A stretch of DNA of 64,000 bases from a virus (lineage: Duplodnaviria > Heunggongvirae > Uroviricota > Caudoviricetes). Location of the stretch: positions 59,632 through 123,631 of IMG/VR virus record IMGVR_UViG_3300042991_000725, one strand, 5' to 3'. The position numbers and the translations under genes are program-made. The notes below the pieces were generated by a model. The model searched no databases. It was not told where the DNA came from and saw nothing but the letters and a program-made list of their open reading frames with translations. Shown here in pieces: positions 5,312 through 48,993 of this stretch. The stretch's first letter is position 1. Each line of letters begins with the position of its first letter.

Positions 5312-5561
5312 GGCTATTTATCCAAAAAGTAAAAAACAATCTTTGCTGTACAGTGTCCTATACAAACAACAAAATAAACATATATCATTCCCCAAAACAA
5401 ATCAAGCATATCTTCACAAAATGTTGCTTTCATAAAACCCTCCATCCGTTGTTTATGGTAGGCGGCCAACGAGTCGAACGTTGTGTACGAAATTATAAGT
5501 TTCGCCCTCAAAACCGTCGAGGACACCGCCTGTATTTAAATATTTATTCCTTGCAGACTTC

Positions 5562-26244: not shown

Positions 26245-27344
26245 TGCGATTCTCCTTGAAAAATTGAAAATTCTTCACATTGTCTTGATAACTGAATCCT
26301 TGGGGATGTAAACAACTTCATTCCCCAGAATCCAGATTTCCAGCATTTCCGGGAACACGTTCGCGACCGTCCCGAAAATCTTTTGGCCATTCAACCAAAA
26401 CCAAATACTGTTACCCCGCGCCATAATGTGCCCTCTCTTAAAAAGTTGAAACACGGCTTTTTCTGTTTATACAACCGTCTATCCTTCAATGCTTTGCAAC
26501 TATTCTTTTTTTCTTTCAACAAAACGCATTCTCGCGAAGTACTTATATAAGATAAGTGAAAAAGGTTTTTTGTGGCTTCGCACATAGACTTTTGCATCGC
26601 AAAAGACGAAGACTATAAGAGAAGCAGTATTATTTTCTCAGAATAACCCGAATTCTCCAGCAAAGCTCATCCGTTGGATTCGCAGTCTTCTGGAGTGAAT
26701 TAAAGCAAAATAGACGGGTTATTGTTTCAAAAATGGGAAAACTGGCGGGATTTAGCCAATTCCCCCTATGAAAAATAATACTCCAGTTTATTATCTGCAT
26801 TTGTCGAATATCTTGATAACAACCGACAAAAGCAAAGTGCTTCGTGCCAGATTGAATATCCGTCTTTATTCTACCGTCTGTCATTTTCAGGCAGTAGGAG
26901 AAAGAAGATTGATTTTTAATTATCGGGGAATCAATCAAAAACCCCGCTTTAATGGCTATCCAGATCAAGCAAGCATAGGCAGATTTTTTCCCAAATTAGC
27001 CACGGATTCGGTTTTAACGGACATTCTTGCCCGGTCTTTTATGGCAGGCAAGCGGAATCCCATTAATAATCTGTCTACTTCATTATATAAGACAAGTTGT
27101 CCTCATATACATGGGAGTTGGCTTGCGCCCTTGCTCTCCCATATTTTGCCATTCTGGAAGCCCCCCTCGGATATGGCGGACCGGATAATAGATTGTTTTA
27201 CATATTTCTTCCTTTCCAAAAAACGTTTATGAAAAAACCCTTTTGCTTTCAGATGACCAGGGCGACCCCCCGATTCATCCGAAAACACAATTAAATCTGT
27301 CCGAATCCTTTTTTCCCTTTTTGGAGCGGATATTCGGGCTTAAC

Positions 27345-27668
27345 TCAAACAACAAGCCCATCGCATGCAACCGGATTCCCCTTGTCGTCACGGATCAAAT
27401 CCCCTGGGGAAACCAAATCGGTTCTATCCGGGCAAAAGTCTCTCACCATTCTTGGGACGATATAAATATTATTATGATATTTGTCTCGCTTTGGGAGATC
27501 CTCAACATCTCCGTATGTGTTATTGTTTATCGCGATTCCGTTAAAAACATCAATCGTTTGTGTCCTGACTTTTACCCTGGCAACCTTCCCGCTTTTCGGG
27601 AAAGTCACAAACTCCCCGTCTTGCCGCTTCACCACGATGTCGTGCGGGGTCAGATTAATGAAATTCAT
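27345..27668 (-). CDS. hypothetical protein
   Basis: 107-aa ORF. Confidence 0.4.
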   Translation of the reverse strand: MNFINLTPHDIVVKRQDGEFVTFPKSGKVARVKVRTQTIDVFNGIAINNNTYGDVEDLPKRDKYHNNIYIVPRMVRDFCPDRTDLVSPGDLIRDDKGNPVACDGLVV

Positions 27669-27818
27669 AGTGTTCCCCTTCCTATAAGATTTCTACTTGA
27701 AAGCGGATACCCGGAATGGGCGCCGCTATAATTAAAAACGGTCCGTCCGCATTTAAGCAGAACGGACCTTATCGAAATGCGGCCACACTAACCGATGGCC
27801 GCCTTCTACCTTCTCCTT

Positions 27819-27965
27819 TTAAATCTCCCCGTCAAACGTCAACGGGAAAAACTCGTCACAATCCGAACAATGGAACTCTTCCGGAAGCTCATCCTCCCCG
27901 GAAAAGTCCCAGGTCGTTGTCAATTGCTTTCCACAAAACGGGCAATCCGGGTTATCGTATTCCAT
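27819..27965 (-). CDS. small zinc-ribbon protein (48 aa)
   Basis: MEYDNPDCPFCGKQL...HCSDCDEFF; AAGGAAG SD; below the ORF-track cutoff. Confidence 0.35.
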   Translation of the reverse strand: MEYDNPDCPFCGKQLTTTWDFSGEDELPEEFHCSDCDEFFPLTFDGEI

Positions 27966-28127
27966 TGTTCTTCCTTTGACAAAGGTCGTTTTTATCCAAA
28001 ATACCCTGAAAAGACCCGGGATTCGGCGATTTTTTCCGAATCTTTCCAGGATACTTTGAATCTCTCTGGAATCCCCTATCTTCCCTCTTATAACCGGGAT
28101 AGGGCAAAACTTCTTTAATGGCCGGGA

Positions 28128-28502
28128 TCATTCCTTCATTCCGTCCATGATTTCTACATACTCGAAAGCCGTCATGCCTTTAACGGCTTTCGCATAATCC
28201 CCGCAAATATCCGGGGAGAAATTAATCTTGTCTCCCATAACGGAAGAATGTCCCGCTTTACAATAAAGACAAGACCTTGTAGCCCCGGAGGCTGTTCTAT
28301 GCTCTTGAAAGAATGAATGGACACACTTTTTACAGCTTTTCATGGATTTCGCTTCGACTTCTTGTGTCGATTCGCGGAGGAGTTTGATCTCTGCTTCCTG
28401 CTCCGTCCCCTTCTCCGCTTCCCTTATTTTGGTTAATTCGGCAAGGCGTTTGATCAGTTCCAGGGGAATCAAATCCATGTCATTCCCTTTCGAAAATTGC
28501 AT
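28128..28502 (-). CDS. hypothetical protein
   Basis: 124 aa; lies in the GC-elevated island 27.7-29.7 kb. Confidence 0.4.
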   Translation of the reverse strand: MQFSKGNDMDLIPLELIKRLAELTKIREAEKGTEQEAEIKLLRESTQEVEAKSMKSCKKCVHSFFQEHRTASGATRSCLYCKAGHSSVMGDKINFSPDICGDYAKAVKGMTAFEYVEIMDGMKE

Positions 28503-33021: not shown

Positions 33022-34230
33022 ATGAAGTATTATAATGGAAATGACGCACTTGTAATAAAAAGTTGGTGCAATAATCCAGAAGATTCGGCCCTTGATCAAG
33101 CCAAGAATTTAGCCAAATTGCCGTTTGCTTATGGCAGTATTTGTTTGATGCCAGATACACATGCTGGTTACGGAATGCCCATAGGTGGAGTTCTCGCCAC
33201 CAAAGATGTTGTAATTCCTAATGCTGTTGGGGTAGATGTGGGATGTGGAATGTGTGTAGCAAAAACAAATTTACATGATTTATCAACGGATACTATCAAA
33301 CGTATTGTGGGAGAAATTAGAAAGGTTGTTCCGCTTGGATTTAACCATCACAAAGAGCCTCAACCAAAATCGCTGATGCCAGAAGGAGACTTGTATTATC
33401 AAGAATACTACAATAATTATTTTGATAAAATGTTTATTTGTGAAAGAAATCATGACAAGGCAAGAGAGTCTCTTGGAACGCTGGGCGGAGGCAATCATTT
33501 TATTGAGATACAAAAAGACAGCAGAGGGATTGTATGGATTATGATTCATTCTGGATCTCGTAATTTAGGCAAACAGGTTGCCGATCATTACAATAGGTTG
33601 GCGATAGAATTAAATGAATCATATTATAGCAATGTTCCAAAAGAATGGCAATTGGCTTTTTTGCCTATAAATTTTGAAGAAGGCGAAAAATATATACAGG
33701 AAATGGATTATTGCGTCAAGTACGCCAAGGCTAATAGAAAGTTGATGATGACAAGAATAATGCAGTGTTTTGTTGATATTATTCCTGATTGCTTATTTTC
33801 TTCTATTGACGGGAACACTGTTCTTGATGTTGTTCATAATTATGCTAGAATGGAAAATCATTTCGGACACAATTTAATGGTTCATCGAAAAGGTGCTACT
33901 TCTGCAAGAAAAGACGAATATGGGATTATACCGGGATCACAAGGGACTGCGAGCTATATAGTCAAGGGGCTTGGCAATCCAGATAGTTTCATGTCTTGTT
34001 CCCATGGCGCTGGCCGTAAAATGGGCAGGAAAGAAGCCAAGCGAACCCTTAATTTGGATTCAGAAAAGAAGAAGCTTGACGATTTGGGAATTGTCCACGG
34101 CATACGCAGCGTTGACGATTTAGAAGAGGCTTGTAGTGCATATAAAGATATTGATGTGGTTATGGAAGAGCAAAAAGATCTTGTGGAAATCGTTGAGCGT
34201 CTTAAACCTCTTGGCCTTATTAAGGGATAA
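33022..34230 (+). CDS. rtcB: RNA-splicing ligase RtcB (3'-phosphate/5'-OH RNA ligase)
   Basis: 402 aa; CLMPDTHAGYGMPIGGV, GGGNHFIEIQ, IHSGSRNLGKQ and CSHGAGRKM match the RtcB metal/GTP-binding motifs. Confidence 0.85.
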   Translation: MKYYNGNDALVIKSWCNNPEDSALDQAKNLAKLPFAYGSICLMPDTHAGYGMPIGGVLATKDVVIPNAVGVDVGCGMCVAKTNLHDLSTDTIKRIVGEIRKVVPLGFNHHKEPQPKSLMPEGDLYYQEYYNNYFDKMFICERNHDKARESLGTLGGGNHFIEIQKDSRGIVWIMIHSGSRNLGKQVADHYNRLAIELNESYYSNVPKEWQLAFLPINFEEGEKYIQEMDYCVKYAKANRKLMMTRIMQCFVDIIPDCLFSSIDGNTVLDVVHNYARMENHFGHNLMVHRKGATSARKDEYGIIPGSQGTASYIVKGLGNPDSFMSCSHGAGRKMGRKEAKRTLNLDSEKKKLDDLGIVHGIRSVDDLEEACSAYKDIDVVMEEQKDLVEIVERLKPLGLIKG

Positions 34231-35514: not shown

Positions 35515-36189
35515 ATGAACACTGGAAAAGGCAAGTCTATAATAACGAATTTTGGATGTGATAAGTCGTGTCATTATTGTATTTGGAAATATTCACAACT
35601 GAGGAATTACAAAACTACAATAGACAATACAGACTGGGAAAAGCTATCGAAGTTCATAAAGGGCTCGGATAGCATAAGTATTTCTGGTGGCGGCGACCCT
35701 CTTTATAATATTGACGGAAATTGGGCATGGTTCAAGGAGTTCTTTACCAGGGCTAAATCCTATCATGTCAAACTTCACACCGCAGTTATTTTGCCACAAG
35801 ACAAAAGTTTTTATTATGGTAGCTTTAATAAGATTGCACTGCATCTGAATTATAAAGAATTCAAACACAATCTTGACAGGGTTTTTTCTCTACATGAGAA
35901 TATTAGGCTAGTTTTCGTATTGTCGGAGAACGATTTGTCCAAGAACAGGGTAAGTGAGATATGCGAAATATGTGCTGATAAGTCTGTTCAGTTAAGTTTT
36001 AGAGAATTGTTTATCCCTGATAAGACAAAGTCTAGATTGCAGAGTGTGCTTGAAATTAATACGAAGGAAATAGTTAAGAGCAAATACAGTTCTTTCGCCA
36101 AATTTGTCGAACAGGCCGACTATAATATTTATTATATGCCAGACAATTCTATAAGAACAAAATTTTTGGAGAATGCCCATGCAATTTAA
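35515..36189 (+). CDS. QueE-like radical SAM protein (7-carboxy-7-deazaguanine synthase family, B. subtilis type)
   Basis: 224 aa; FGCDKSCHYC (cf. QueE GCDYSCSWC) and ISISGGGDPL (cf. VTISGGNP SAM-binding loop). Confidence 0.5.
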   Translation: MNTGKGKSIITNFGCDKSCHYCIWKYSQLRNYKTTIDNTDWEKLSKFIKGSDSISISGGGDPLYNIDGNWAWFKEFFTRAKSYHVKLHTAVILPQDKSFYYGSFNKIALHLNYKEFKHNLDRVFSLHENIRLVFVLSENDLSKNRVSEICEICADKSVQLSFRELFIPDKTKSRLQSVLEINTKEIVKSKYSSFAKFVEQADYNIYYMPDNSIRTKFLENAHAI

Positions 36190-37165
36190 GAATGCTTTTT
36201 ATCTCCCAAGCGGTAGGGTATTTTTGCTTGATTGTGACGGATTTCCTGTTGAATGTACAGAAATGAGAGATGTTACTGTCGGTGGGAAGGACCATGAAGA
36301 AGTACGAACATCTAACGACCCGCATGTGATTTGGAATCACTTAAAGCCATATAATGAAAAATGGCTGCTTACAGTATCTACGCAGAAGGGCTGCCCACAT
36401 AAATGCAAGTTTTGTGATGTCGCAGGGCTTGGCTTTAGCGGCAATTTAACTGTTGAACAAATCTTGGAGCAAGTTTCTTTCATCCTGGATGCTTCTCCGT
36501 ATGTGCAAAATTGCTCTAAAGTCAAAATAGGATTTGCTAGAATGGGAGAGCCGTCACATAATTTGACAAATGTTCTTAATGCCATGAAGATGCTACCATC
36601 AATCTCTTCTAGCAAAAGTAGAGTTTTCACATGGCTGCCATGCTTTAATAGTATTCTGCCCAAGAAAACAATAGATGGACGGTCAGCATACGATGTGATA
36701 GAAAGAGTTTTAGCTATGAAGGATTGGTATAATGGATTCCTCCACTTCCAAATCTCGGCAAATTCTACAGACGAGAATATTAGGAAGCAGCTTTTCGGTG
36801 GTGCCGATGTCTTGGGCTTGGAAGAAATTGTCAAATATATCAATGGAAAGTCGATTACTAATAGGACAATTACGCTGAATTTTATAGTAATAGATGGAGT
36901 CCCTATTGATGTAAAATATCTAAAGAGTATTGGCGTTAATGGCAGCAAATTTAACATTAAGCTGATCCCATTAAACAATACGGAGCGCGGGATCATCAAT
37001 AACTTGAAGACATATGCCAATTATACCAATTATGATAAACTGATTGATTTGGGAGATGAAATACGGAAGGAAGGCATTCCTGTTGTCGTAGATGCTATAG
37101 CAAAATGTGAAGAGGCCGGGTTATGTTGCGGACAGTTGGCTCATATATATGCGAAAAATAATTAA
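36173..37165 (+). CDS. RlmN/Cfr-family radical SAM RNA methyltransferase
   Basis: STQKGCPHKCKFCDVAGLGFSGNLTVEQILEQV parallels RlmN [33 protein letters not shown]; C-terminal CCGQLA parallels the RlmN ACGQLAG (second catalytic Cys). Confidence 0.7.
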   Translation: MPMQFKNAFYLPSGRVFLLDCDGFPVECTEMRDVTVGGKDHEEVRTSNDPHVIWNHLKPYNEKWLLTVSTQKGCPHKCKFCDVAGLGFSGNLTVEQILEQVSFILDASPYVQNCSKVKIGFARMGEPSHNLTNVLNAMKMLPSISSSKSRVFTWLPCFNSILPKKTIDGRSAYDVIERVLAMKDWYNGFLHFQISANSTDENIRKQLFGGADVLGLEEIVKYINGKSITNRTITLNFIVIDGVPIDVKYLKSIGVNGSKFNIKLIPLNNTERGIINNLKTYANYTNYDKLIDLGDEIRKEGIPVVVDAIAKCEEAGLCCGQLAHIYAKNN

Positions 37166-37174
37166 TTTTTTCTA

Positions 37175-37202
37175 TTGACAAAATCTGGTTTAGGTGTATA
37201 CT
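37175..37202 (+). promoter_or_regulatory. sigma70-type promoter (TTGACA-16-TATACT)
   Basis: TTGACA at 37175-37180 and TATACT at 37197-37202. Confidence 0.55.
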
Positions 37203-37208
37203 AATAAT

Positions 37209-37409
37209 AGCTTCTTACTCTTTTATAGGGGTGCGCTTTCCGTGAGATTGAAGCAATCCATATTTACCTATCTCGATATGGCCATTACGTCCCCCGGACT
37301 AGGGGAACGAACATGGTCAGTCCATCGAAATTTGGGTAGGAGAGTGATGGTGGGCTGAGGAAAACGGGAAAACCGAATTCCTCAACTCACCCACGAAAGT
37401 GGGTTTTTT
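37209..37409 (+). ncRNA. candidate ~200-nt structured small RNA / tRNA-operon leader
   Basis: No ORF; bounded by the promoter above and an intrinsic terminator. Internal hairpin CCCCGGACTAGGGG and long-range pairing CCTATCTCGATATGG / CCATCGA...GGTAGG. Confidence 0.4.
37386..37409 (+). terminator. rho-independent terminator
   Basis: CACCCACGAAAGTGGG + TTTTTTG. Confidence 0.6.
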
Positions 37410-37428
37410 GTTTGTAGTAAAAAATCGT

Positions 37429-37504
37429 TCTGGGGTAGCTCAGCTGGTAGAGCGACGGACTGTTAATCCGTTTGTCGCAGGTTCAAATCCTGCTCCCAGA
37501 GCCA
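37429..37504 (+). tRNA. tRNA-Asn (GUU)
   Basis: Acceptor TCTGGGG/TCCCAGA, anticodon loop CU-GUU-AA, T-arm GGTTCAAATCC, CCA encoded. Confidence 0.8.
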
Positions 37505-37511
37505 AAATTAT

Positions 37512-37583
37512 CAGGGTGTGGGCCAATGGCTGGCCACCAGTCTTGGGCACTGGGTCATGCAGGTTCGACTCCTGTCACCCTGA
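37512..37583 (+). tRNA. tRNA-Pro (UGG)
   Basis: Acceptor CAGGGTG/CACCCTG, anticodon stem CCAGT/ACTGG, loop CU-UGG-GC. Confidence 0.75.
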
Positions 37584-37595
37584 TTTAATATGTGC

Positions 37596-37666
37596 GTCCC
37601 TGTGATCTAATGGCAGGATACCAGATTTTCAGTCTGGGTGCAAGGGTTCGATCCCCTTCAGGGATA
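37596..37666 (+). tRNA. tRNA-Glu (UUC)
   Basis: Acceptor GTCCCTG/CAGGGAT, anticodon loop UU-UUC-AG; D-arm TCTAATGGCAGGA homologous to bacterial tRNA-Glu. Confidence 0.75.
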
Positions 37667-37684
37667 TTTGTTCTTTGAAAATGT

Positions 37685-37758
37685 AGCCCATTAACTCAAC
37701 TGGCTAGAGTGCCACTTTTACACGGTGGAAGTTGAAGGCTCGAATCCTTCATGGGCTA
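37685..37758 (+). tRNA. tRNA-Val (UAC)
   Basis: Acceptor AGCCCAT/ATGGGCT, anticodon loop UU-UAC-AC, T-arm GAAGGCTCGAATCCTTC. Confidence 0.7.
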
Positions 37759-37764
37759 TTTAAT

Positions 37765-37838
37765 GCTCGGTTAGTGTAGTGACAACACGCGACACTGTCG
37801 ATGTCGAGTCAGGAGTTTAATTCTCCTACCGAGTGCCA
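37765..37838 (+). tRNA. tRNA-Asp (GUC)
   Basis: Anticodon stem CGACA/TGTCG, loop CU-GUC-GA; CCA encoded. Confidence 0.8.
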
Positions 37839-37865
37839 TTTTTTTCGGGCTATGTGCCCACCAAT

Positions 37866-37936
37866 GGGGACATAACATAATGGGAATGTGTTACCCTTGC
37901 AAGGTAAAAATGTGGTTTCGACTACCACTGTCTCCA
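37866..37936 (+). tRNA. tRNA-Ala (UGC)
   Basis: Acceptor GGGGACA/TGTCTCC with G3:U70 identity pair; anticodon loop CU-UGC-AA. Confidence 0.8.
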
Positions 37937-37985
37937 TTATCTTTTATTTTTTGCTCTTTGACAATATTGCTGTAAAACGTAACAC

Positions 37986-38073
37986 AGAAGCGTAGCCTAA
38001 CGGTAAGGCAGCACTTTGCTAAAGTGCCATGCGTCCACAAGGCGTATTGAGAGTTCAATTCTCTCCGCTTCTG
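37986..38073 (+). tRNA. tRNA-Ser (GCU)
   Basis: Type II; acceptor AGAAGCG/CGCTTCT+G, anticodon loop UU-GCU-AA, long variable arm. Confidence 0.8.
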
Positions 38074-38095
38074 CTTTATAAAACTAGGAGCCCAT

Positions 38096-38815
38096 ATGCA
38101 AACTAATACAATGAAGTGCGAATATGGATGTGGGAATAACGCTTTATACAAGTTGCCTAAAGGCAGATGGTGTTGTTCGACGAGCTTTAATTCGTGTCCT
38201 GCTTCCAGAGAAAAAAACAGAATAGCCGTTCTCGATAGCTATAAAAATGGAAGATCTGGTTATTGGAAAGGCAAAAGTTATCCAAGTTTTGGCAAAAAAT
38301 ATGAAGAAATGTACGGCAAGGACAGGTCTGAAATAATCAAAGATAAAATATCAAAGTCTTTGATTGGCGTTTCTCCGGGCAGAGCAAGTACGGACGAGAA
38401 AGAACAAATAAGAAGATCTCGCATTTCTGCAAAAATGATTCTTAATAAATGTGGCGGGTATAGGTACGGTAGCGGCAGAGGTAAAAAGGGAACATATAAG
38501 GGGTATTGGTGTGATAGTAGTTGGGAGCTAGCCTATGTTATTTATTGTTTAGATCATAGTATCAAAATAAGTAGAAATTGGACAAGGTTTCCTTATGTTT
38601 ATAAAGGCAAGCAGCGTTTTTGGATTCCAGACTTTGTTAAAGAAGATACCTATATCGAGATTAAAGGATATGAGACAAAAAAGGATGAAGCAAAATTCAA
38701 TTATTTTAAAAAGAGCTTGATTATTCTTAAAGAAAAAGAAATGCGTTTTATACTAAGTTATGTTACTGATAAATACGGAAAGGACTATATTTCAATGTAC
38801 GAAAGGAAGAGTTGA
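38096..38815 (+). CDS. zinc-finger + PD-(D/E)xK nuclease domain protein (putative homing endonuclease inside the tRNA array)
   Basis: 239 aa; AGGAG SD; N-terminal CEYGCG...CCSTSFNSC zinc cluster; C-terminal WCDSSWE...PDFVKEDTYIEIKG (D...E-x-K); stop overlaps the 5' end of tRNA-Ser(UGA) by 11 nt. Confidence 0.5.
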   Translation: MQTNTMKCEYGCGNNALYKLPKGRWCCSTSFNSCPASREKNRIAVLDSYKNGRSGYWKGKSYPSFGKKYEEMYGKDRSEIIKDKISKSLIGVSPGRASTDEKEQIRRSRISAKMILNKCGGYRYGSGRGKKGTYKGYWCDSSWELAYVIYCLDHSIKISRNWTRFPYVYKGKQRFWIPDFVKEDTYIEIKGYETKKDEAKFNYFKKSLIILKEKEMRFILSYVTDKYGKDYISMYERKS

Positions 38816-38896
38816 CCACAGTGGGTGCGTGGCCTTGTCTTGAAAACAAGTGCCCATGAAAGTGGGCTGAGAGTTCAAATCTCTCCTCTTCCTCCA
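38805..38896 (+). tRNA. tRNA-Ser (UGA)
   Basis: Type II; acceptor GGAAGAG/CTCTTCC, anticodon stem CTTGT/ACAAG, loop CU-UGA-AA, T-arm GAGAGTTCAAATCTCTC; end taken with encoded CCA. Confidence 0.7.
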
Positions 38897-38898
38897 CT

Positions 38899-38968
38899 GC
38901 CCCGTGGTGTAATTGGAAACGCGCTGGCCTTTGGAGCCGGAGTCTCCCGTTCAAATCGGGACGGGGCA
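38899..38968 (+). tRNA. tRNA-Gln (UUG)
   Basis: Acceptor GCCCCGT/ACGGGGC+A, anticodon loop CU-UUG-GA. Confidence 0.7.
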
Positions 38969-38977
38969 ATTTTATAC

Positions 38978-39049
38978 TGCCCAGTGGTGTAATAGAAACA
39001 TATCGGACTCTGACTCCGAAGACTTCAGGTGCAAGTCCTGACTGGGCAA
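38978..39049 (+). tRNA. tRNA-Gln (CUG)
   Basis: Acceptor TGCCCAG/CTGGGCA+A, anticodon stem TCGGA/TCCGA, loop CU-CUG-AC. Confidence 0.7.
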
Positions 39050-39058
39050 TTTTTATTC

Positions 39059-39142
39059 GCAAGTGTAGCCCGTTATGGAGGCGGATGAGCCTGTAGAGCT
39101 CATATCTTCGGATCATAGAAGGTTCGATTCCTTCCACTTGCA
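39059..39142 (+). tRNA. tRNA-Tyr (GUA)
   Basis: Type II; acceptor GCAAGTG/CACTTGC+A, anticodon stem TGAGC/GCTCA, loop CU-GUA-GA. Confidence 0.8.
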
Positions 39143-39153
39143 TTTTATATTGT

Positions 39154-39226
39154 CGCAGGGTCGCCAAATGGTAAGGCTCCAGACTCATAATCTGGCAATT
39201 TGCTGGTTCGATTCCGGCCCCTGCTA
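39154..39226 (+). tRNA. tRNA-Met or Ile2 (CAU)
   Basis: Anticodon stem CCAGA/TCTGG, loop CU-CAU-AA. Elongator-type (no 3 G-C pairs in anticodon stem); a C1:U72 mismatch is read at the acceptor end, so termini are approximate. Confidence 0.65.
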
Positions 39227-39237
39227 TTTATTTTTAT

Positions 39238-39310
39238 GGTGGCTATAGTGTAGAGGACTGCACGTCTGACTGTGGCTCAGGAAGTCTGGGATCGTTACCC
39301 AGTAGTCACC
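39238..39310 (+). tRNA. tRNA-His (GUG)
   Basis: Encoded extra G(-1) opposite discriminator C73 (His hallmark); acceptor GTGGCTA/TAGTCAC, anticodon loop CU-GUG-GC. Confidence 0.8.
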
Positions 39311-39321
39311 CCATTTTTCTT

Positions 39322-39394
39322 GCGAGTGTAGCTGAATAAGACTAGCACCGGATTTTTAATCCGGGATATGTGGGTGCGAATCCCATCACTCGCA
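39322..39394 (+). tRNA. tRNA-Lys (UUU)
   Basis: Acceptor GCGAGTG/CACTCGC+A, anticodon stem CCGGA/TCCGG, loop UU-UUU-AA. Confidence 0.8.
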
Positions 39395-39399
39395 CTTTT

Positions 39400-39472
39400 G
39401 CGTCTGTAGCTCAATTGGCAGAGCATTTGGTTCTTACCCAAGGGGTTGGAGGTTCAAGTCCTCCCAGACGCA
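39400..39472 (+). tRNA. tRNA-Lys (CUU)
   Basis: Acceptor GCGTCTG/CAGACGC+A, anticodon loop UU-CUU-AC. Confidence 0.7.
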
Positions 39473-39480
39473 TTTTATTT

Positions 39481-39553
39481 GCTGGTGTAGCTTAATGGTT
39501 AAAGCGTCAGCCTTATAAGCTGAAAATCGGTGGTCCAATTCCACCCACCAGTA
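39481..39553 (+). tRNA. tRNA-Ile (UAU)
   Basis: Acceptor GCTGGTG/CACCAGT+A, anticodon stem TCAGC/GCTGA, loop CU-UAU-AA (AUA decoder). Confidence 0.65.
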
Positions 39554-39560
39554 CCATTCT

Positions 39561-39636
39561 GCGCTCATGGTGTAATGGATAACATTTCTGACTACGAATC
39601 AGAAGAGTGCAGGTTCGAGTCCTGCTGGGCGTACCA
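39561..39636 (+). tRNA. tRNA-Arg (ACG)
   Basis: Anticodon stem TCTGA/TCAGA, loop CU-ACG-AA; CCA encoded. Confidence 0.75.
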
Positions 39637-39637
39637 T

Positions 39638-39709
39638 GTGCCTGTGGTGTAATGGATAACATGTCACGGTCCTAACGTGTCGATTTGGGTTCAATTCCCA
39701 ACGGGCATA
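39638..39709 (+). tRNA. tRNA-Arg (CCU)
   Basis: Anticodon stem CACG/CGTG, loop GU-CCU-AA; T-arm TTGGGTTCAATTCCCAA. Confidence 0.65.
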
Positions 39710-39735
39710 TTTACTTTGAAAGGCGGTGATAACCA

Positions 39736-40326
39736 ATGGTTCTAAATGACGCAACTCTTGTTTTGAATAAAGGATGGGTCCCAATCGGCTTCGCTTCAGT
39801 GCGCAGGGCTATGGAACTGTTGGTTACTGATAGGGCACAGGCGATTCTCCCAGACGACTATTCTGTCCATAATTTTGATTCTTGGGCAGATTTAAGGCTG
39901 TTAGACGATGAGATACGAATCCGTACTGTAAGTTTGGAAATAAAAGTTCCTGAGATCATCAGGCTAAATACATATACCGGAGTTCCGCAACACAAACTCA
40001 AGCTTTCTAGGCGCAATCTTTTCCGCAGGGATAATTGTACGTGTCAGTATTGCGGCAAACAACTCAAGAGCGAGGATGCAACTATTGACCATGTCATTCC
40101 GAGAGCATTGGGTGGTAAAACGACTTGGCTCAATTGTGTTATCGCCTGTCTCAAGTGCAATAGCAAAAAAGACGACAAGACGCTGGCTCAGTGTGGGATG
40201 AGATTGATAAAAATTCCTGTTGCACCTAATGGAATGGCAAGTATACGGATTCCTGTATTTAAGAAGAGGATCAGTTGGGATAAGTTTATTTCAGAAGCGT
40301 ATTGGAATATTGAACTTCTTGAATAG
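39736..40326 (+). CDS. HNH endonuclease (putative homing endonuclease inside the tRNA array)
   Basis: 196 aa; CQYCGK...DHVIPRALGG...N...CLKCN HNH motif with flanking zinc-ligand Cys pairs. Confidence 0.75.
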   Translation: MVLNDATLVLNKGWVPIGFASVRRAMELLVTDRAQAILPDDYSVHNFDSWADLRLLDDEIRIRTVSLEIKVPEIIRLNTYTGVPQHKLKLSRRNLFRRDNCTCQYCGKQLKSEDATIDHVIPRALGGKTTWLNCVIACLKCNSKKDDKTLAQCGMRLIKIPVAPNGMASIRIPVFKKRISWDKFISEAYWNIELLE

Positions 40327-40358
40327 GAGTTAAGCAGACAAACGTTTCGAATAAGCAC

Positions 40359-40431
40359 ATGCCCATAGTCTAATTGGATAGGCGCCAGACTTCTAATCTG
40401 GTTTATGAGGGTCCGAGTCCCTCTGGGCATA
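40359..40431 (+). tRNA. tRNA-Arg (UCU)
   Basis: Acceptor ATGCCCA/TGGGCAT+A, anticodon stem CCAGA/TCTGG, loop CU-UCU-AA. Confidence 0.75.
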
Positions 40432-40433
40432 TT

Positions 40434-40507
40434 GCGGGTGTGGCTCAGTGGTAGAGCGCGACGTTGCCATCGTCGATGCGAGGGTCCGATTCCCTTCACT
40501 CGCTCCA
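40434..40507 (+). tRNA. tRNA-Gly (GCC)
   Basis: Acceptor GCGGGTG/CACTCGC, anticodon stem CGACG/CGTCG, loop UU-GCC-AU; CCA encoded. Confidence 0.8.
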
Positions 40508-40508
40508 A

Positions 40509-40582
40509 GCGCCTGTGGTGAAATGGCATCACGAGAGTCTTCCAAACTCTAGTCCCGGGTTCAATCCCCGGTAGGCGCTCCA
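40509..40582 (+). tRNA. tRNA-Gly (UCC)
   Basis: Anticodon stem AGAGT/ACTCT, loop CU-UCC-AA; CCA encoded. Confidence 0.8.
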
Positions 40583-40594
40583 TTTTTTTTATAC

Positions 40595-40665
40595 GCTTGG
40601 ATAGCTCAACGGTAAGGCATCTGGTTGAAGCCCAGAAAATGCAAGTTCAATTCTTGCTCCAAGCA
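40595..40665 (+). tRNA. tRNA-Phe (GAA)
   Basis: Acceptor GCTTGGA/TCCAAGC+A, anticodon stem TCTGG/CCAGA, loop UU-GAA-GC. Confidence 0.8.
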
Positions 40666-40670
40666 TTTAT

Positions 40671-40744
40671 ACGGGTGTAGTGTAGTGAAAACATTTCAGA
40701 CTCCAAATCTGAAGACAGGGGTTCGATTCCTCTCGCCCGTGCCA
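40671..40744 (+). tRNA. tRNA-Trp (CCA)
   Basis: Anticodon stem TCAGA/TCTGA, loop CU-CCA-AA; CCA end encoded. Confidence 0.75.
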
Positions 40745-40847
40745 TGCTATAAATCGTATGTGGGGAGAATAAAAATGATCGTTAGAGCTGGAATGAATTA
40801 TGCCGATGCTGGAAGAATTGGATATTTGAAAGGGAAAAGTTATTAAT

Positions 40848-40919
40848 GCCCGATAAGCGTAGATGCCGACGCAGGACCCTTGTAAGGTTCAGAGGCTGGT
40901 TGAAGTCCAGCATCGGGCT
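40848..40919 (+). tRNA. tRNA-Thr (UGU)
   Basis: Acceptor GCCCGAT/ATCGGGC, anticodon stem GGACC/GGTTC, loop CU-UGU-AA, T-arm GCTGGTTGAAGTCCAGC. Confidence 0.7.
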
Positions 40920-40930
40920 TTTATTTATAC

Positions 40931-41001
40931 GCTGTTATAGCTTAGTGGCAAAGCAGGGCTTTCGTAAAGCTCAGACGTTGGTTCGATTCCAACTAGCAGC
41001 T
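40931..41001 (+). tRNA. tRNA-Thr (CGU)
   Basis: Acceptor GCTGTTA/TAGCAGC, anticodon loop UU-CGU-AA. Confidence 0.7.
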
Positions 41002-41006
41002 TTTGT

Positions 41007-41079
41007 GCCGCCATAGCTCAGTTAGAAGAGCGCATTCTTGGTAAGAATGAGGTCGTGAGTGCAAATCTCGCTGGTGGCT
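41007..41079 (+). tRNA. tRNA-Thr (GGU)
   Basis: Acceptor GCCGCCA/TGGTGGC, anticodon stem CATTC/GAATG, loop UU-GGU-AA. Confidence 0.75.
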
Positions 41080-41084
41080 TTTAT

Positions 41085-41156
41085 GCACGAGTAGCCAAGT
41101 GGCTAAGGCGGCAAGCTGCAACCTTGCTAATATGGGTTCGATTCCCATCTCGTGCT
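41085..41156 (+). tRNA. tRNA-Cys (GCA)
   Basis: Acceptor GCACGAG/CTCGTGC, anticodon stem GCAAG/CTTGC, loop CU-GCA-AC. Confidence 0.8.
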
Positions 41157-41163
41157 TATTTGT

Positions 41164-41249
41164 GGCCAAGTGGCGGAATGGCAGACGCGAGAGTTTCAAA
41201 AGCTCTTGTCCATACACGGACACTGTGGGTTCAAGTCCCACCTTGGCTA
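41164..41249 (+). tRNA. tRNA-Leu (CAA)
   Basis: Type II with long variable arm; anticodon stem AGAGT/GCTCT, loop UU-CAA-AA; T-arm GTGGGTTCAAGTCCCAC. Confidence 0.7.
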
Positions 41250-41255
41250 TTTTAT

Positions 41256-41329
41256 GGCGCCATAGCCCAACGGCAGGAGGCATCTCGCTTAGAACGAGAG
41301 CAGTGCTGGTTCGAGTCCGGCTGGCGTTA
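41256..41329 (+). tRNA. tRNA with anticodon UAG (Leu-type anticodon, atypical short variable arm)
   Basis: Anticodon stem TCTCG/CGAGA, loop CU-UAG-AA; variable region only 5 nt (GCAGT); T-arm GCTGGTTCGAGTCCGGC; acceptor has two G:U pairs. Confidence 0.55.
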
Positions 41330-41342
41330 TTTTTTCAAATCT

Positions 41343-41414
41343 GCGGATATAGCTCAGCAGTAGAGTTCTTGTCTGATAAGCAAGAGGTCGAAGGTGCGAT
41401 TCCTTCTATCCGCA
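41343..41414 (+). tRNA. tRNA-Ile (GAU)
   Basis: Acceptor GCGGATA/TATCCGC+A, anticodon stem CTTGT/GCAAG, loop CU-GAU-AA. Confidence 0.8.
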
Positions 41415-41495
41415 TTTTATATTTTGTAATAGTGGCAGCGATTGCCTTTAACTATATCAATGCTACTTGTGGCACCAGTGAATTGCCAACTGCCA

Positions 41496-45802: not shown

Positions 45803-46100
45803 TTTCCGTCCTCTTTTTTCTTATCCATAATTTGCATATTCCAAACTGATTAATTCGTCTTCCGTTTGTCCAATGTTCCCACATGGCCCTTTGTTCTTTA
45901 AGCATCTGTTGCTCTGCCCTATTAAACGGTTCATTCATTTCTACTGATCCGCATAATGGACGCTCTCCGTTGTTTGCTGAACAAAAACACTTGCTATTTA
46001 TATCTAGGTCTTTGTATTCAAAAAACCACTTACAATTCCAACAGCCATCTTGTTTTTTATACGACCTATCTAATTTATAGAGCTTTGTTTGTTTTGCCAT
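45783..46100 (-). CDS. Cys-rich hypothetical protein
   Basis: 105-aa ORF. Confidence 0.4.
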   Translation of the reverse strand: MAKQTKLYKLDRSYKKQDGCWNCKWFFEYKDLDINSKCFCSANNGERPLCGSVEMNEPFNRAEQQMLKEQRAMWEHWTNGRRINQFGICKLWIRKKRTENEDTKK

Positions 46101-47319
46101 AATTTAAAAACCTTTCAGCTATTTGTGGTTTAACATATGATTTAAGTCCTCTTCGTATGCCATTGATTAATACATCGGTTAGTTCTGGACCTCCACGTTT
46201 AAGTGCCATAAGAAGCCTATATGTAGTTTCTGTTTGCCCACAACGCCCAAAGCAATTGTATTCGATAAAACGCTTAGCGTCTTTAATAAACCCATTATCT
46301 TGCAGTACTGTCGCCCATCGAATAACAAATTCTTTTTTGGCGTCAAAGTCGACCAGCGGCGCGTTTTCAAGCGGCGTTCTTGAAGATGGTTGAAAGTTGG
46401 TAATGCTGAAATCAATACGTATGTTGTGGGAGCAACCTTTTCTCATTTGTCCGATGATATTTACCCAATTATACCATTCTTGATAATTGTCGTTTGGCAG
46501 TCCGTATATGAGATAAAAATGCAGAGTTGTCATATATGACATCATTTTTTGTATAGAATCTAACATAAAATCATTAGTAAAACCTTTCCCGATGCGCTTA
46601 CGCGTTTGTTCATCGAAGCTTTCTATTCCAGTGCGAACATTCTTTTGTAAATAATTTTGATATTTTATAATATTATTAATATAGAACATACATGTGTCTG
46701 AGTTAGCGACGAATATTTTTTTTGACATGGCATACTGGATAAGTTCATCAAACTTCGAGTAACCGGCAAAATTGGCAGACATAAAATTTACCGTCCTTGC
46801 CCCGTTTTTTACAAGCCAATCTATTTGTTTTTTGGCAAGATTCAGTTGTTTTTCTCTGTACTTGCACGTATTCCAAGAATATTCACAAAATGCACACTTA
46901 AGCCTGCAGCCTCTGGTTAATTCTATAATGCCGTTTTTATTGTTATTAATGAACGGATTCGTTACTATTTCATCTTTATTTTCTTTGTAATCATATTCGC
47001 CGCAAAACGTGCTATCAACAATGTCTTTTAATATCCAGTTATTGCCTATGCCTTGACCTCCAGCGATAATAACCGGCAGTCCATTGCGCCTATTTTTGAG
47101 AGGCTCAATCTTATTAATTCGTAAAAACGCCATTGCATTTATTATTTGTAATGGATAAAATATGTTAAATCCAATTGCGCTATATTGTTCCCAGTTTACT
47201 TTTTTGCTCCATTTTATTACATCGGCATTCCAAGAATCTTTTACTATTTGTAGGCCGAAATTTACTGTGTTTACTTGTTCAAGGTCGTATGGAGTTGTGT
47301 CTACTATTAGTGTTTTCAT
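46075..47319 (-). CDS. radical SAM protein with N-terminal B12-binding-like domain
   Basis: 414 aa; N-terminal ~150 aa Rossmann-like (VIIAGGQGIGN); core ELTRGCRLKCAFCEY = CxxxCxxC. Confidence 0.55.
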   Translation of the reverse strand: MKTLIVDTTPYDLEQVNTVNFGLQIVKDSWNADVIKWSKKVNWEQYSAIGFNIFYPLQIINAMAFLRINKIEPLKNRRNGLPVIIAGGQGIGNNWILKDIVDSTFCGEYDYKENKDEIVTNPFINNNKNGIIELTRGCRLKCAFCEYSWNTCKYREKQLNLAKKQIDWLVKNGARTVNFMSANFAGYSKFDELIQYAMSKKIFVANSDTCMFYINNIIKYQNYLQKNVRTGIESFDEQTRKRIGKGFTNDFMLDSIQKMMSYMTTLHFYLIYGLPNDNYQEWYNWVNIIGQMRKGCSHNIRIDFSITNFQPSSRTPLENAPLVDFDAKKEFVIRWATVLQDNGFIKDAKRFIEYNCFGRCGQTETTYRLLMALKRGGPELTDVLINGIRRGLKSYVKPQIAERFLNYGKTNKAL

Positions 47320-48288: not shown

Positions 48289-48491
48289 TTTTTGCCCCCG
48301 TCTGTATGCTTTAATACAAGTGCATTATAAATAGAGTCGTTATTAATGTCTGAACTATAGTTCAAATATTCCTTCTTCGTCCGCTTATAGAATAGCTTTA
48401 TATTATCCCCATATATTTTTCTAATATCGCTGGAAACGCTCCATAACTTTTTAACAGCTTTTCTAATTATCTTTGCTTTTTTTTCGTTCAT
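48285..48491 (-). CDS. hypothetical protein
   Basis: 68-aa basic ORF. Confidence 0.35.
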   Translation of the reverse strand: MNEKKAKIIRKAVKKLWSVSSDIRKIYGDNIKLFYKRTKKEYLNYSSDINNDSIYNALVLKHTDGGKK

Positions 48492-48993
48492 TTAGTTCTC
48501 CAAAGTAGGCATTGCTAAGATTTAAGACTTTGTTGTTGTGTTTTTTGTTCTTTGGATATAACACAACACGGCACCCTTCTTTGTTGCTGGGATCAATGAA
48601 ATAAGTAGCCATATCCTCTATTACTTCCTCTGGCACCTTCTCGGAAATGTCGCACCTTTTGTTATTTTCAAAGCATTTTTTTATAGTTGTTGTGACCCAC
48701 ACTATGGTTGTTTTCGCCCCATAATCCTGTCCTATATTTATCCATTTGGCCCTTATTCTTCTGCTTATGTTTGTTTCGTCTATGATGACAGAAGATCCCT
48801 GCATCAACAAGAGTCTAGCTAACGACTCAGCTACTGCCCATACAAACATTTCGGCATTCTCGTGATATTGATGGCCAAAGATTGTTCTGCGAATTACATC
48901 TTTAGAAACAACAATTTCGTTCTTTTTTTTATTTTTTTTAATCCATGTAGATTTGCCAGACCTTGGGAGCCCACACATTATTATTAAGTTCAT
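48463..48993 (-). CDS. polynucleotide 5'-kinase (T4 Pnk kinase-domain-like)
   Basis: GLPRSGKSTW P-loop, VSKDVIRRTI, VIIDETNISRRIRAKW, NNKRCDISEKVPEEVIEDM closely parallel the T4 Pnk kinase domain (GCPGSGKSTW...INRDDYRQSI...VIISDTNLNPERRLAW...RNSKRGTKAVPIDVLRSM). Confidence 0.7.
   Translation of the reverse strand: MNLIIMCGLPRSGKSTWIKKNKKKNEIVVSKDVIRRTIFGHQYHENAEMFVWAVAESLARLLLMQGSSVIIDETNISRRIRAKWINIGQDYGAKTTIVWVTTTIKKCFENNKRCDISEKVPEEVIEDMATYFIDPSNKEGCRVVLYPKNKKHNNKVLNLSNAYFGELNERKKSKDN

What the first reader, a model, noticed from the sequence alone, without database searches (positions are those of the whole stretch)
37166..37410. Promoter- and terminator-bounded ~200-nt non-coding transcript directly upstream of the tRNA array
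A near-consensus sigma70 promoter (TTGACA-16-TATACT) is followed by ~200 nt without a credible ORF. The region contains a CCCC-loop-GGGG hairpin enclosed by a long-range helix, and ends in a canonical intrinsic terminator 20 nt before the first tRNA. It may be a phage sRNA, a processed leader of the tRNA operon, or an attenuator controlling tRNA transcription.
Basis: seen in the sequence. Interest (0 to 1): 0.5.

Follow-up and report, generated by a model that had tools for sequence, protein, structure and literature searches.

The report
Orphan structured leader RNA before phage tRNAs
An uncultivated phage carries a strong promoter, a tightly folded ~200-base non-coding RNA and a weak terminator directly in front of its 29-gene tRNA array; the features are real, but the RNA matches no known family and no relative was found, so its role as a gate on tRNA transcription is an inference.

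Summary
A perfect TTGACA-16-TATACT promoter (37175-37202) is followed by about 200 nt with no credible ORF. That stretch ends in a 6-bp GNRA-loop hairpin plus U-tract (37389-37409), 19 nt before tRNA-Asn. It is the most stable GC-corrected fold of 2552 windows in the 64 kb (z about -4.3). Its helices are well defined: a three-way-junction domain containing the CCCC/GGGG hairpin, then a second hairpin P4, then the terminator.

There is no room for another promoter before the tRNAs, so the first tRNA block can only be reached by reading through this terminator. The bottom 3 bp of the terminator compete with an extension of P4 (GGUGGG:CUCACC), and the two states are about isoenergetic. That predicts a leaky or switchable terminator.

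My best reading (0.42) is a structured leader and attenuator of the tRNA operon that also yields a discrete ~200-nt RNA.

No Rfam family matches. No homolog turned up in GenBank phages, plasmids, E. coli genomes, IMG/VR, JGI metagenomes or GTDB genomes. The phage was seen in two samples with identical sequence, so covariation could not be tested. T-box, tmRNA, Y RNA, nut/boxA and T4 rnaC/rnaD membership all failed. Interest is moderate to low: a real orphan RNA of a known general kind.

The parts
37154..37174 (+). A+T tract (20 of 21 bases) directly upstream of the -35 hexamer. It resembles an UP element and overlaps the last codons and stop of the radical SAM gene.
   Evidence: Read from the sequence. 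The UP-element role is an inference.
37175..37202 (+). Sigma-70-type promoter TTGACA-16-TATACT. Transcription is predicted to start near A37209.
   Evidence: 11/12 match, best in 35-41 kb. Only exact match to this pattern in 64 kb.
37216..37233 (+). P0, a weak G-U-rich 5' hairpin within a CU-rich 5' end. It is not significant on its own.
   Evidence: -4.5 kcal/mol, z=-1.64. Pair probabilities 0.73-0.93 in the full RNA.
37234..37346 (+). Domain I, a three-way junction. It comprises closing helix P1 (37234-41 with 37339-46), hairpin P2 (37242-61) and the long arm P3 (37265-37338). The apex of P3 is the CCCC-GGACUA-GGGG hairpin (37292-37305).
   Evidence: -41.8 kcal/mol, MFE equals centroid, z=-4.45. 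Pair probabilities 0.86-1.0.
37347..37351 (+). Linker AUGGU. G37349-U37351 can extend the base of P4 by pairing with A37389-C37391.
37352..37388 (+). P4 hairpin (GGG C UGAGGAA AA CGG-GAAAA-CCG AA UUCCUCA A CUC). Its 3-bp extension (37349-51 with 37389-91) sequesters half of the terminator's 5' arm.
   Evidence: Core pair probability 0.98, extension 0.45-0.71. This helix is already complete when the transcript reaches 37394, before the terminator's 3' arm exists.
37389..37414 (+). Intrinsic terminator: ACCCAC-GAAA-GUGGGU (6 bp, GNRA loop, -9.3 kcal/mol) followed by U5-G-U3-G.
   Evidence: The three bottom pairs have probability only 0.25-0.54. The 3' domain states lie at -27.4 vs -27.1 kcal/mol.
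37415..37428 (+). Short A-rich spacer before the first tRNA. It is too short to hold a promoter.
37429..38074 (+). First block of the tRNA array (Asn, Pro, Glu, Val, Asp, Ala, Ser). It can only be reached by read-through of the terminator.
   Evidence: No + strand promoter-like site between 37203 and 37428.

Best explanation
This is the structured 5' leader of the phage tRNA operon, and it carries a built-in attenuating terminator.

Proposed sequence of events:
1. Host sigma-70 RNA polymerase starts near 37209 from a very strong promoter.
2. The nascent RNA folds into a stable three-way-junction domain (37234-37346), then the P4 hairpin.
3. The base of P4 first extends over CUCACC (37386-37391). 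When GUGGGU (37399-37404) emerges, the terminator stem must take back three of those bases to complete its bottom pairs.
4. The two states are about equal in energy, so only a fraction of polymerases terminate. Those release a discrete RNA of about 200 nt.
5. The rest read on into tRNA-Asn and the array, where RNase P cleavage at the tRNA 5' end would free the leader.

The same hairpin is also the first convincing + strand terminator after the upstream RtcB / methylase / radical SAM operon.

Shown here: the promoter, the fold, the competing helices and the absence of any other promoter. Inferred: transcription itself, partial termination, processing, and any regulatory input acting on the switch.
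For: - Promoter quality and uniqueness.
- No ORF.
- The fold ranks 1st of 2552 windows and z is about -4.3 to -4.5.
- Helix probabilities are 0.9 or higher.
- No promoter-like site on the + strand between 37203 and 37428, and only 19 nt between the U-run and tRNA-Asn.
- The bottom pairs of the terminator have probability 0.25-0.54 against 0.45-0.71 for the P4 extension. The states lie at -27.4 vs -27.1 kcal/mol, and the extension forms first in a growing-transcript series.
- The terminator hairpin is modest (-9.3 kcal/mol, 6 bp) compared with the window's strongest hairpin-plus-T-run sites at -13 to -16.
- No other + strand terminator-like site stronger than -6.6 kcal/mol lies between 30 kb and 37.4 kb.
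- Two unrelated phage contigs also show a promoter, then a strongly folding stretch of 160-250 nt, then a tRNA (L019 z=-4.55, L028 z=-6.66). This suggests the architecture recurs.
- Established knowledge: intrinsic termination requires the hairpin to extend down to the U-tract, so weakening the bottom pairs lowers efficiency.
Against: - There are no homologs, so no covariation or conservation supports either the fold or the switch.
- There are no expression data.
- All energies are equilibrium predictions for a single sequence. A 3-bp strand exchange is fast and may not reduce termination much in vivo.
- A leader role gives no reason why 113 nt of stable three-way junction is needed.
- The other tRNA blocks in this window have unstructured upstream regions (z=+1.7 to -0.8 for the three other + strand blocks).
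- The L019 and L028 analogues are not homologous, and L028 overlaps a called gene.
Confidence: 0.42

Rival explanations
1. It is a stand-alone trans-acting phage small RNA gene with its own promoter and terminator. It would act on host or phage RNAs or proteins, for example as a base-pairing regulator through the CU-rich 5' end, or as a protein sponge or decoy. Read-through into the tRNAs would be incidental.
For: - It has the classic gene shape of promoter, about 200 nt of structured RNA and an intrinsic terminator.
- The 5' 25 nt are CU-rich and only weakly paired (z=-1.64).
- T4 keeps small stable RNAs of unknown function, rnaC and rnaD, inside its tRNA cluster.
- Attenuator-derived RNAs can also act in trans (PMC6614838).
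Against: - No complementarity longer than 12-15 nt to anything else in the 64 kb. The best match is the U-tract against an A-run.
- The tRNA block still needs a promoter and this is the only one.
- The terminator is predicted to be weak rather than efficient.
- The host is unknown, so host targets cannot be tested.
Confidence: 0.25
2. It is a regulated sensor. Domain I would bind a ligand, a protein (a phage antiterminator) or an RNA such as the uncharged 3' end of a tRNA. Binding would shift the balance between the P4 extension and the terminator, making tRNA-array transcription conditional or timed, in the manner of a riboswitch, T-box or nut/put element.
For: - Promoter, large well-defined structured domain, mutually exclusive helices, terminator and then genes is the standard layout of transcription-attenuation switches.
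- The G-rich strand occurs three times (GGGGUG at 37228, GGUGGG at 37349, GUGGGU at 37399) against a single C-rich partner, CUCACCCAC (read).
- The single-stranded linker UGGU (37348-37351) is complementary to a tRNA ACCA end.
- P4 is capped by CGG-GAAAA-CCG, the same pentaloop as lambda nutR boxB (from memory).
Against: - No riboswitch, T-box or other cis-regulatory family reaches even E<=10, apart from terminator-only look-alikes.
- The 7-nt T-box bulge and specifier architecture are absent on inspection.
- The boxA 13-mer does not match the RNA within 3 mismatches.
- Four- to six-nucleotide complementarities are expected by chance.
- No conservation is available to show that the switch is under selection.
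Confidence: 0.15
3. The RNA has no dedicated function. The hairpin would simply terminate the upstream protein operon, the promoter would simply drive the tRNAs, and the intervening stable fold would be incidental, for example a decayed remnant of other genes.
For: - No homolog was found anywhere searched.
- The phage is seen in only two samples, with identical sequence.
- The terminator is the first after a 7-kb operon.
- The 27.6-28.2 kb region shows that this genome also makes very stable hairpin chains elsewhere.
Against: - The promoter lies upstream of the terminator, not downstream, which is the wrong order for a simple stop-then-start.
- Rank 1 of 2552 windows, MFE equal to centroid for domain I, raised G+C and strand asymmetry are hard to get from junk.
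- There is no trace of tRNA or other RNA remnants at E<=10.
Confidence: 0.15

Closest known systems
Phage T4 small stable RNAs rnaC (species 1, 139 nt) and rnaD (species 2, 119 nt) in the T4 tRNA cluster
   Same: Both are phage-encoded, non-coding, of unknown function, 120-200 nt long, physically part of a tRNA gene cluster that also holds a homing-endonuclease gene, and presumably co-transcribed with the tRNAs (T4 annotation; segB context in PMC2330249).
   Different: The T4 RNAs lie at the distal (3') end of the cluster, directly abutting tRNA-Arg, and no promoter or terminator is annotated around them in the T4 record. The RNA here is at the 5' end, between a promoter and a terminator. No sequence or structure similarity: model R1 scores 10 bits or less, and nothing falls on rnaC or rnaD.
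Transcription-attenuation leaders (riboswitches, T-box leaders)
   Same: Both have a promoter-proximal structured domain followed by a terminator whose 5' arm can pair alternatively with an upstream G-rich strand, and then the controlled genes.
   Different: No family match. There is no T-box sequence, bulge or specifier loop. The controlled genes are tRNAs rather than aminoacyl-tRNA synthetase, biosynthesis or transport genes. No ligand or effector is known, and the alternative helix overlaps only 3 of the 6 terminator pairs.
Processive antitermination sites (rrn and lambda boxA/boxB nut, HK022 put)
   Same: Both are promoter-proximal RNA elements upstream of a terminator in front of stable-RNA or delayed genes. 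The RNA here has a GAAAA-capped hairpin and a CU-rich 5' segment.
   Different: boxA is not matched within 3 mismatches. The boxB-like loop sits 140 nt from the CU-rich segment, on a 3-bp stem. No N-like or Q-like protein was identified. I did not compare it with put RNA directly; none of the three weak matches that Rfam returned at E<=10 is a put or nut family.
Bacterial Y RNAs (YrlA/YrlB) of rsr-rtcBA operons
   Same: Both are structured non-coding RNAs of 100-200 nt encoded near an RtcB RNA ligase gene. Here RtcB lies 3 kb upstream on the same strand.
   Different: No Rfam Y RNA match. No T-arm-like module was seen on inspection. No ORF of Ro60 size lies near it, and none of the three other ORFs of 400 aa or more is annotated as Ro60.

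Membership tests
Sigma-70 promoter | -35 TTGACA and -10 TATAAT hexamers with a 16-18 nt spacer, placed in an intergenic position | tested here: met
   TTGACA-16-TATACT, 11/12. Only exact copy in 64 kb. Starts 9 nt after the upstream stop codon.
Intrinsic (Rho-independent) terminator | G+C-rich hairpin immediately followed by a U-tract | tested here: met
   ACCCAC-GAAA-GUGGGU followed by U5GU3. Hairpin -9.3 kcal/mol. The bottom pairs are contested by the P4 extension.
Any Rfam 15 family | Covariance-model score at or above the family's gathering threshold | tested here: not met
   Only tRNAs reach the gathering threshold in the window. At E<=10 on 37100-37450 there are three weak hits, all to the terminator or to a 27-nt stretch on the opposite strand.
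T-box riboswitch | Match to RF00230 and the conserved T-box sequence, with a 7-nt UGGN bulge between antiterminator helices A1 and A2 | tested here: not met
   No RF00230 hit at E<=10. The 5' side between the candidate helices is 1 nt (C37355), not a 7-nt bulge (read).
T-box riboswitch | Controls aminoacyl-tRNA synthetase, amino-acid biosynthesis or transporter genes | tested here: not met
   The downstream genes are tRNAs.
tmRNA (standard or permuted) | tRNA-like domain plus tag reading frame, detected by ARAGORN or the Rfam tmRNA models | tested here: not met
   ARAGORN finds no tmRNA in the window and no Rfam tmRNA model hits. The same tools do detect the tmRNA in locus L019.
Bacterial Y RNA (YrlA-like) | Rfam Y RNA match, tRNA-like module and a Ro60 (Rsr) partner gene | tested here: not met
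   No Rfam hit. No ORF of Ro60 size lies near it; the ORFs of 400 aa or more are RtcB, a radical SAM protein, ribonucleotide reductase and a protein of unknown function. Only the RtcB neighbourhood criterion is met.
T4 rnaC / rnaD small stable RNAs | Sequence or structure homology to T4 rnaC or rnaD | tested here: not met
   Model R1 with filters off over the T4 tRNA region gives no hit on rnaC or rnaD; the best hit elsewhere scores 10 bits. blastn against 50,697 phage records gives no match.
T4 rnaC / rnaD small stable RNAs | Non-coding RNA gene embedded in a phage tRNA cluster | tested here: met
   The RNA lies 19 nt upstream of the first of 29 tRNAs on the same strand, though at the 5' rather than the 3' end.
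boxA/boxB (nut, rrn) antitermination site | boxA consensus (UGCUCUUUAACAA or CGCUCUUA) close to a boxB hairpin | tested here: not met
   No boxA match within 3 mismatches inside 37203-37414. A GAAAA pentaloop hairpin exists at 37365-37375 but lies 140 nt from the CU-rich 5' end.
Leader-peptide attenuator | Translatable short ORF with a ribosome-binding site whose translation decides between antiterminator and terminator | tested here: inconclusive
   A three-codon ORF, AUG-GUG-GGC-UGA (37347-37358), has AGGAG 4 nt upstream and overlaps the GGUGGG strand. However, the AGGAG is paired in helix P1 (probability 0.95). The 26-codon ORF from AUG 37278 has no ribosome-binding site and sits inside helix P3b.
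Conserved structured RNA (any new family) | Homologs with compensatory base changes | tested here: inconclusive
   No homolog was found, so no alignment could be built. The only second copy (L010/L032, Logan SRR35210686) is 100% identical.

The most novel reading that the evidence does not exclude
Domain I is a new sensor class that makes transcription of a phage tRNA array conditional. It might respond to the state of the host tRNA pool (the UGGU linker pairing with free tRNA ACCA ends) or to a phage-encoded factor. It would be the first riboswitch- or T-box-like attenuator known to control tRNA genes. It sits in a phage that also carries RtcB, an RNA ligase, a kinase and tRNA/rRNA-type radical SAM methylases, a gene set consistent with countering tRNA-cleaving host defences.
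Probability: 0.1. Interest if true: 0.8.

Novelty: new member of a known kind. Interest (0 to 1): 0.35.

Why it matters
Phage tRNA arrays are increasingly seen as tools for overcoming codon bias and tRNA-targeting host defences, yet how their expression is controlled is largely unknown. Here a strong promoter, a very stable 113-nt junction domain and a deliberately weak-looking terminator sit immediately before the array. That gives a concrete, testable candidate for such control. If the RNA accumulates, it is also a new phage small RNA comparable to the still-unexplained T4 rnaC and rnaD.

Two unrelated phage contigs showed a non-homologous but similar layout of promoter, strongly folding stretch and tRNA. 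This hints that structured leaders before phage tRNAs may be more common than annotated.

On present evidence it is a single-lineage orphan with no conservation support, so its importance is potential rather than demonstrated.

Tried and rejected
**Known RNA families**
- Rfam at gathering threshold and at E<=10 gave nothing. tmRNA, tRNA remnant, Y RNA, T-box, SRP, 6S and known riboswitch or ribozyme classes are rejected on that basis and on inspection.
- boxA: the 5' CUCUUUU segment looked similar by eye but fails the 13-mer within 3 mismatches.

**Coding potential**
- Only an ORF that starts in the -10 hexamer, an ORF without a ribosome-binding site inside helices, and a 3-codon mini-ORF whose ribosome-binding site is paired.

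**Homolog search by nucleotide similarity**
- blastn (distant mode) against GenBank phages, plasmids and E. coli genomes: no match.
- megablast of 15 kb around the site: no match.

**Homolog search by DNA pattern**
- IMG/VR: an exact 20-mer and two purine/pyrimidine-degenerate hairpin patterns found 0.
- GTDB genomes: two degenerate patterns found 0.
- The tRNA-Asn 3' 22-mer in IMG/VR found 0.

**Homolog search through neighbouring proteins**
- Anchors used: radical SAM 330 aa, RtcB, the 224-aa protein and the 239-aa endonuclease, in IMG/VR, JGI metagenomes and the 5.8-billion-protein set.
- The nearest radical SAM is 69% identical, and in the five relatives' contexts examined the gene is not followed by tRNAs or by this RNA.
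- RtcB relatives are at most 60% identical in IMG/VR and at most 41% in GenBank phages.

**Other attempts**
- A spurious ORF across the tRNAs, used as a protein handle, found nothing.
- Single-sequence covariance model R1 run over 28 fetched loci and the T4 tRNA region gave no hit.
- A paralog search in the window found none.
- Exact-protein look-ups for strain variants found only one other sample, with identical sequence.
- The 186-nt spacer inside the array (40745-40930) is not structured (z=-0.47) and holds a small ORF.

Full report
**Setting.** The window is part of an uncultivated phage. It carries ribonucleotide reductase, an RNA ligase, RtcB, DNA methylases, several radical SAM proteins and homing endonucleases, plus 32 tRNA genes. 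Of those tRNAs, 29 form an array on the + strand at 37429-41415. The same protein set occurs on a JGI contig of 154,404 bp and on one Logan contig.

The + strand block begins near 30.4 kb, where GC skew flips. It runs through an SPFH-domain gene, RtcB (33022-34230), a DNA methylase, a 224-aa CxxxCxxC protein and a 330-aa RlmN/Cfr-like radical SAM gene that ends at 37165.

**Checking the observation.**
- The promoter TTGACA-16-TATACT (37175-37202) scores 11/12 and is the best site in 35-41 kb. It is the only exact match to that pattern in 64 kb.
- It begins 9 nt after the upstream stop codon and is preceded by a 95% A+T tract. Two other operon starts in the window use the same TTGACAA -35, so this looks like the phage's standard host-polymerase promoter.
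- Transcription should start near A37209.
- No credible ORF follows.
- The terminator ACCCAC-GAAA-GUGGGU plus U5GU3 occupies 37389-37414, and tRNA-Asn starts at 37429.

**The fold.** The 204-nt RNA folds at -75.5 kcal/mol with z=-4.28. I folded every 204-nt window of the 64 kb on both strands and corrected for G+C. This stretch ranks first of 2552, ahead of the tRNA array. The anatomy, is:
- a weak 5' hairpin P0, not significant on its own (z=-1.64);
- domain I (37234-37346), a three-way junction closed by P1, with a short hairpin P2 and a 74-nt arm P3 whose tip is the CCCC-GGACUA-GGGG hairpin. For this domain z=-4.45, the MFE equals the centroid, and pair probabilities are 0.86-1.0;
- a 5-nt linker, AUGGU;
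- hairpin P4 (37352-37388), capped by CGG-GAAAA-CCG;
- the terminator.

The sense strand is 5 kcal/mol more stable than the antisense strand for domain I. G+C is 0.47 in a genome of about 0.38. Both fit an RNA gene read from the + strand.

**What constrains function.** Three points stand out.
1. There is no promoter-like site on the + strand between 37203 and 37428, and only 19 nt separate the U-run from tRNA-Asn. The first seven tRNAs can therefore only be transcribed by polymerases that pass this terminator, whether they come from the 37175 promoter or from the upstream operon.
2. The terminator is short (6 bp, -9.3 kcal/mol), and its three bottom pairs are contested. G37349-G37350-U37351 can pair with A37389-C37390-C37391 and so extend the base of P4. 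In a growing-transcript series this extension is complete by 37394, before the terminator's 3' arm exists. In the full-length ensemble the bottom terminator pairs have probability 0.25-0.54 and the extension 0.45-0.71. The two 3'-domain states differ by 0.3 kcal/mol. Intrinsic termination needs the hairpin to reach the U-tract (established knowledge), so this predicts partial, tunable termination.
3. This is the first convincing + strand terminator after the 7-kb protein operon, so it probably also ends that operon.

The order promoter, structured RNA, weak terminator, genes is the layout of an attenuated leader. It is not the order expected for a simple stop followed by a restart.

**Search for relatives.** This was the main effort, and it failed.
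- Rfam has no match.
- blastn found nothing in 50,697 phage records, 72,556 plasmids or E. coli genomes.
- Exact and purine/pyrimidine-degenerate patterns for three parts of the RNA found nothing in IMG/VR or GTDB genomes.
- Neighbouring proteins used as anchors showed that the phage has no close relative. The nearest radical SAM is 69% identical. In the five relatives' contexts I examined (L001, L002-L005, L006-L009, L023, L025), it sits in other phage or bacterial settings without tRNAs or this RNA downstream.
- RtcB relatives are at most 60% identical in IMG/VR and at most 41% in GenBank phages.
- A single-sequence covariance model (R1, 157 nt, 56 pairs) found only itself among 28 fetched loci and the T4 tRNA region.
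- The only second occurrence, Logan SRR35210686, is identical.

**Families considered.**
- T-box: no RF00230 hit, no 7-nt UGGN bulge, and the wrong kind of downstream genes.
- tmRNA: not found by ARAGORN or Rfam, although the same tools detect a tmRNA inside the tRNA array of locus L019.
- Y RNA: RtcB is nearby, but there is no Rfam hit and no Ro60-sized gene near it.
- boxA/boxB: the CU-rich 5' end fails the boxA 13-mer. The GAAAA-capped hairpin is 140 nt away.
- Leader peptide: a three-codon ORF with an AGGAG overlaps the GGUGGG strand, but its ribosome-binding site is locked in P1.
- T4 rnaC and rnaD are the nearest analogues in kind. They are small stable RNAs of unknown function inside a phage tRNA cluster that also holds a homing endonuclease (PMC2330249). 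They sit at the other end of the cluster and share no similarity.

**Interpretation.** I commit to a structured leader and attenuator of the tRNA operon that also yields a ~200-nt RNA (0.42). The alternatives are:
- a stand-alone trans-acting sRNA (0.25);
- a genuinely regulated sensor, riboswitch-like, T-box-like or protein-dependent (0.15);
- no dedicated function (0.15).

These overlap, because an attenuator product can also act in trans (PMC6614838). Transcription, partial termination and processing are all inferred. Only the sequence features and the thermodynamic predictions are shown.

**Side observation bearing on the interpretation.** In two unrelated phage contigs a promoter-like site is followed by a strongly folding stretch of 160-250 nt that runs up to a tRNA. 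They are L019 2152-2341 (z=-4.55) and L028 5190-5471 (z=-6.66, with a 19-bp hairpin plus U5 about 10 nt before a suppressor tRNA). They are not homologous to this RNA and match no Rfam family. The other tRNA blocks in this window lack such leaders. Three cases are too few to generalise, but a survey would be cheap.

**Verdict.** This is a real, strongly structured, promoter- and terminator-bounded non-coding RNA at the head of a phage tRNA array. It is unclassified and currently an orphan. It is a new member of a known general kind (phage tRNA-cluster-associated small or leader RNA), with an untested but specific attenuation model. Interest 0.35.

Noticed in passing
window 38096-38896; L028 10001-10806; L030 10001-10814: The 239-aa ORF inside the tRNA array belongs to a large family whose members carry phage endonuclease I or NUMOD3 domains. 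It overlaps the start of tRNA-Ser(UGA). Its homologs in two unrelated phage contigs are also immediately followed by tRNA-Ser(UGA), which suggests a homing endonuclease tied to that tRNA gene.
   Followed up: partly
window 37952-37964 (+): TGCTCTTTGACAA, between tRNA-Ala and tRNA-Ser(GCU), is one mismatch from the E. coli rrn boxA sequence TGCTCTTTAACAA. It overlaps a TTGACA, so it may be an internal promoter or an antitermination box. About 0.08 such matches are expected by chance under uniform base composition.
   Followed up: no
window 27650-28210 (-), and more broadly 26600-28200: This is the next most stable region of the window (z=-5.88 over 561 nt). It is a chain of long, near-perfect hairpins interleaved with small ORFs in a stretch of higher G+C. 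It has no Rfam match at E<=1.
   Followed up: partly
L019 2152-2341; L028 5190-5471: Two unrelated phage contigs also show a promoter-like site followed by a strongly folding stretch of 160-250 nt that ends just before a tRNA (z=-4.55 and -6.66). Neither is homologous to the window RNA or matches an Rfam family.
   Followed up: partly
window 829-1863 (-), 33022-34230 (+), 48463-48993 (-), 35515-37165 (+), 46075-47319 (-): The window carries an RNA-repair and RNA-modification gene set around the tRNA array: an RNA ligase, RtcB, an AAA_33/KTI12-like kinase, an RlmN/Cfr-like radical SAM gene paired with a 224-aa CxxxCxxC protein, and a further radical SAM gene. The radical SAM pair recurs as a cassette in other phages and in bacteria.
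   Followed up: partly
window 40775-40846 (+): A 23-codon ORF (MIVRAGMNYADAGRIGYLKGKSY) with a GGGGAG ribosome-binding site lies in the 186-nt spacer between tRNA-Trp and tRNA-Thr. It is followed by a terminator-like hairpin at 40902-40921, and the spacer itself is not structured.
   Followed up: no
L019 2978-3360; L028 5472-5547: A phage contig carrying an RtcB relative (L019) has a tmRNA inside its tRNA array. The contig carrying an endonuclease homolog (L028) has a tRNA with anticodon UUA, an ochre-suppressor type, which may indicate stop-codon reassignment.
   Followed up: no
window 5456-5531 (-), 39481-39556 (+): ARAGORN calls two tRNA-Ile genes with anticodon UAU. Three isolated tRNAs (Ile, Leu, Lys) also lie on the - strand, far from the main array.
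   Followed up: no
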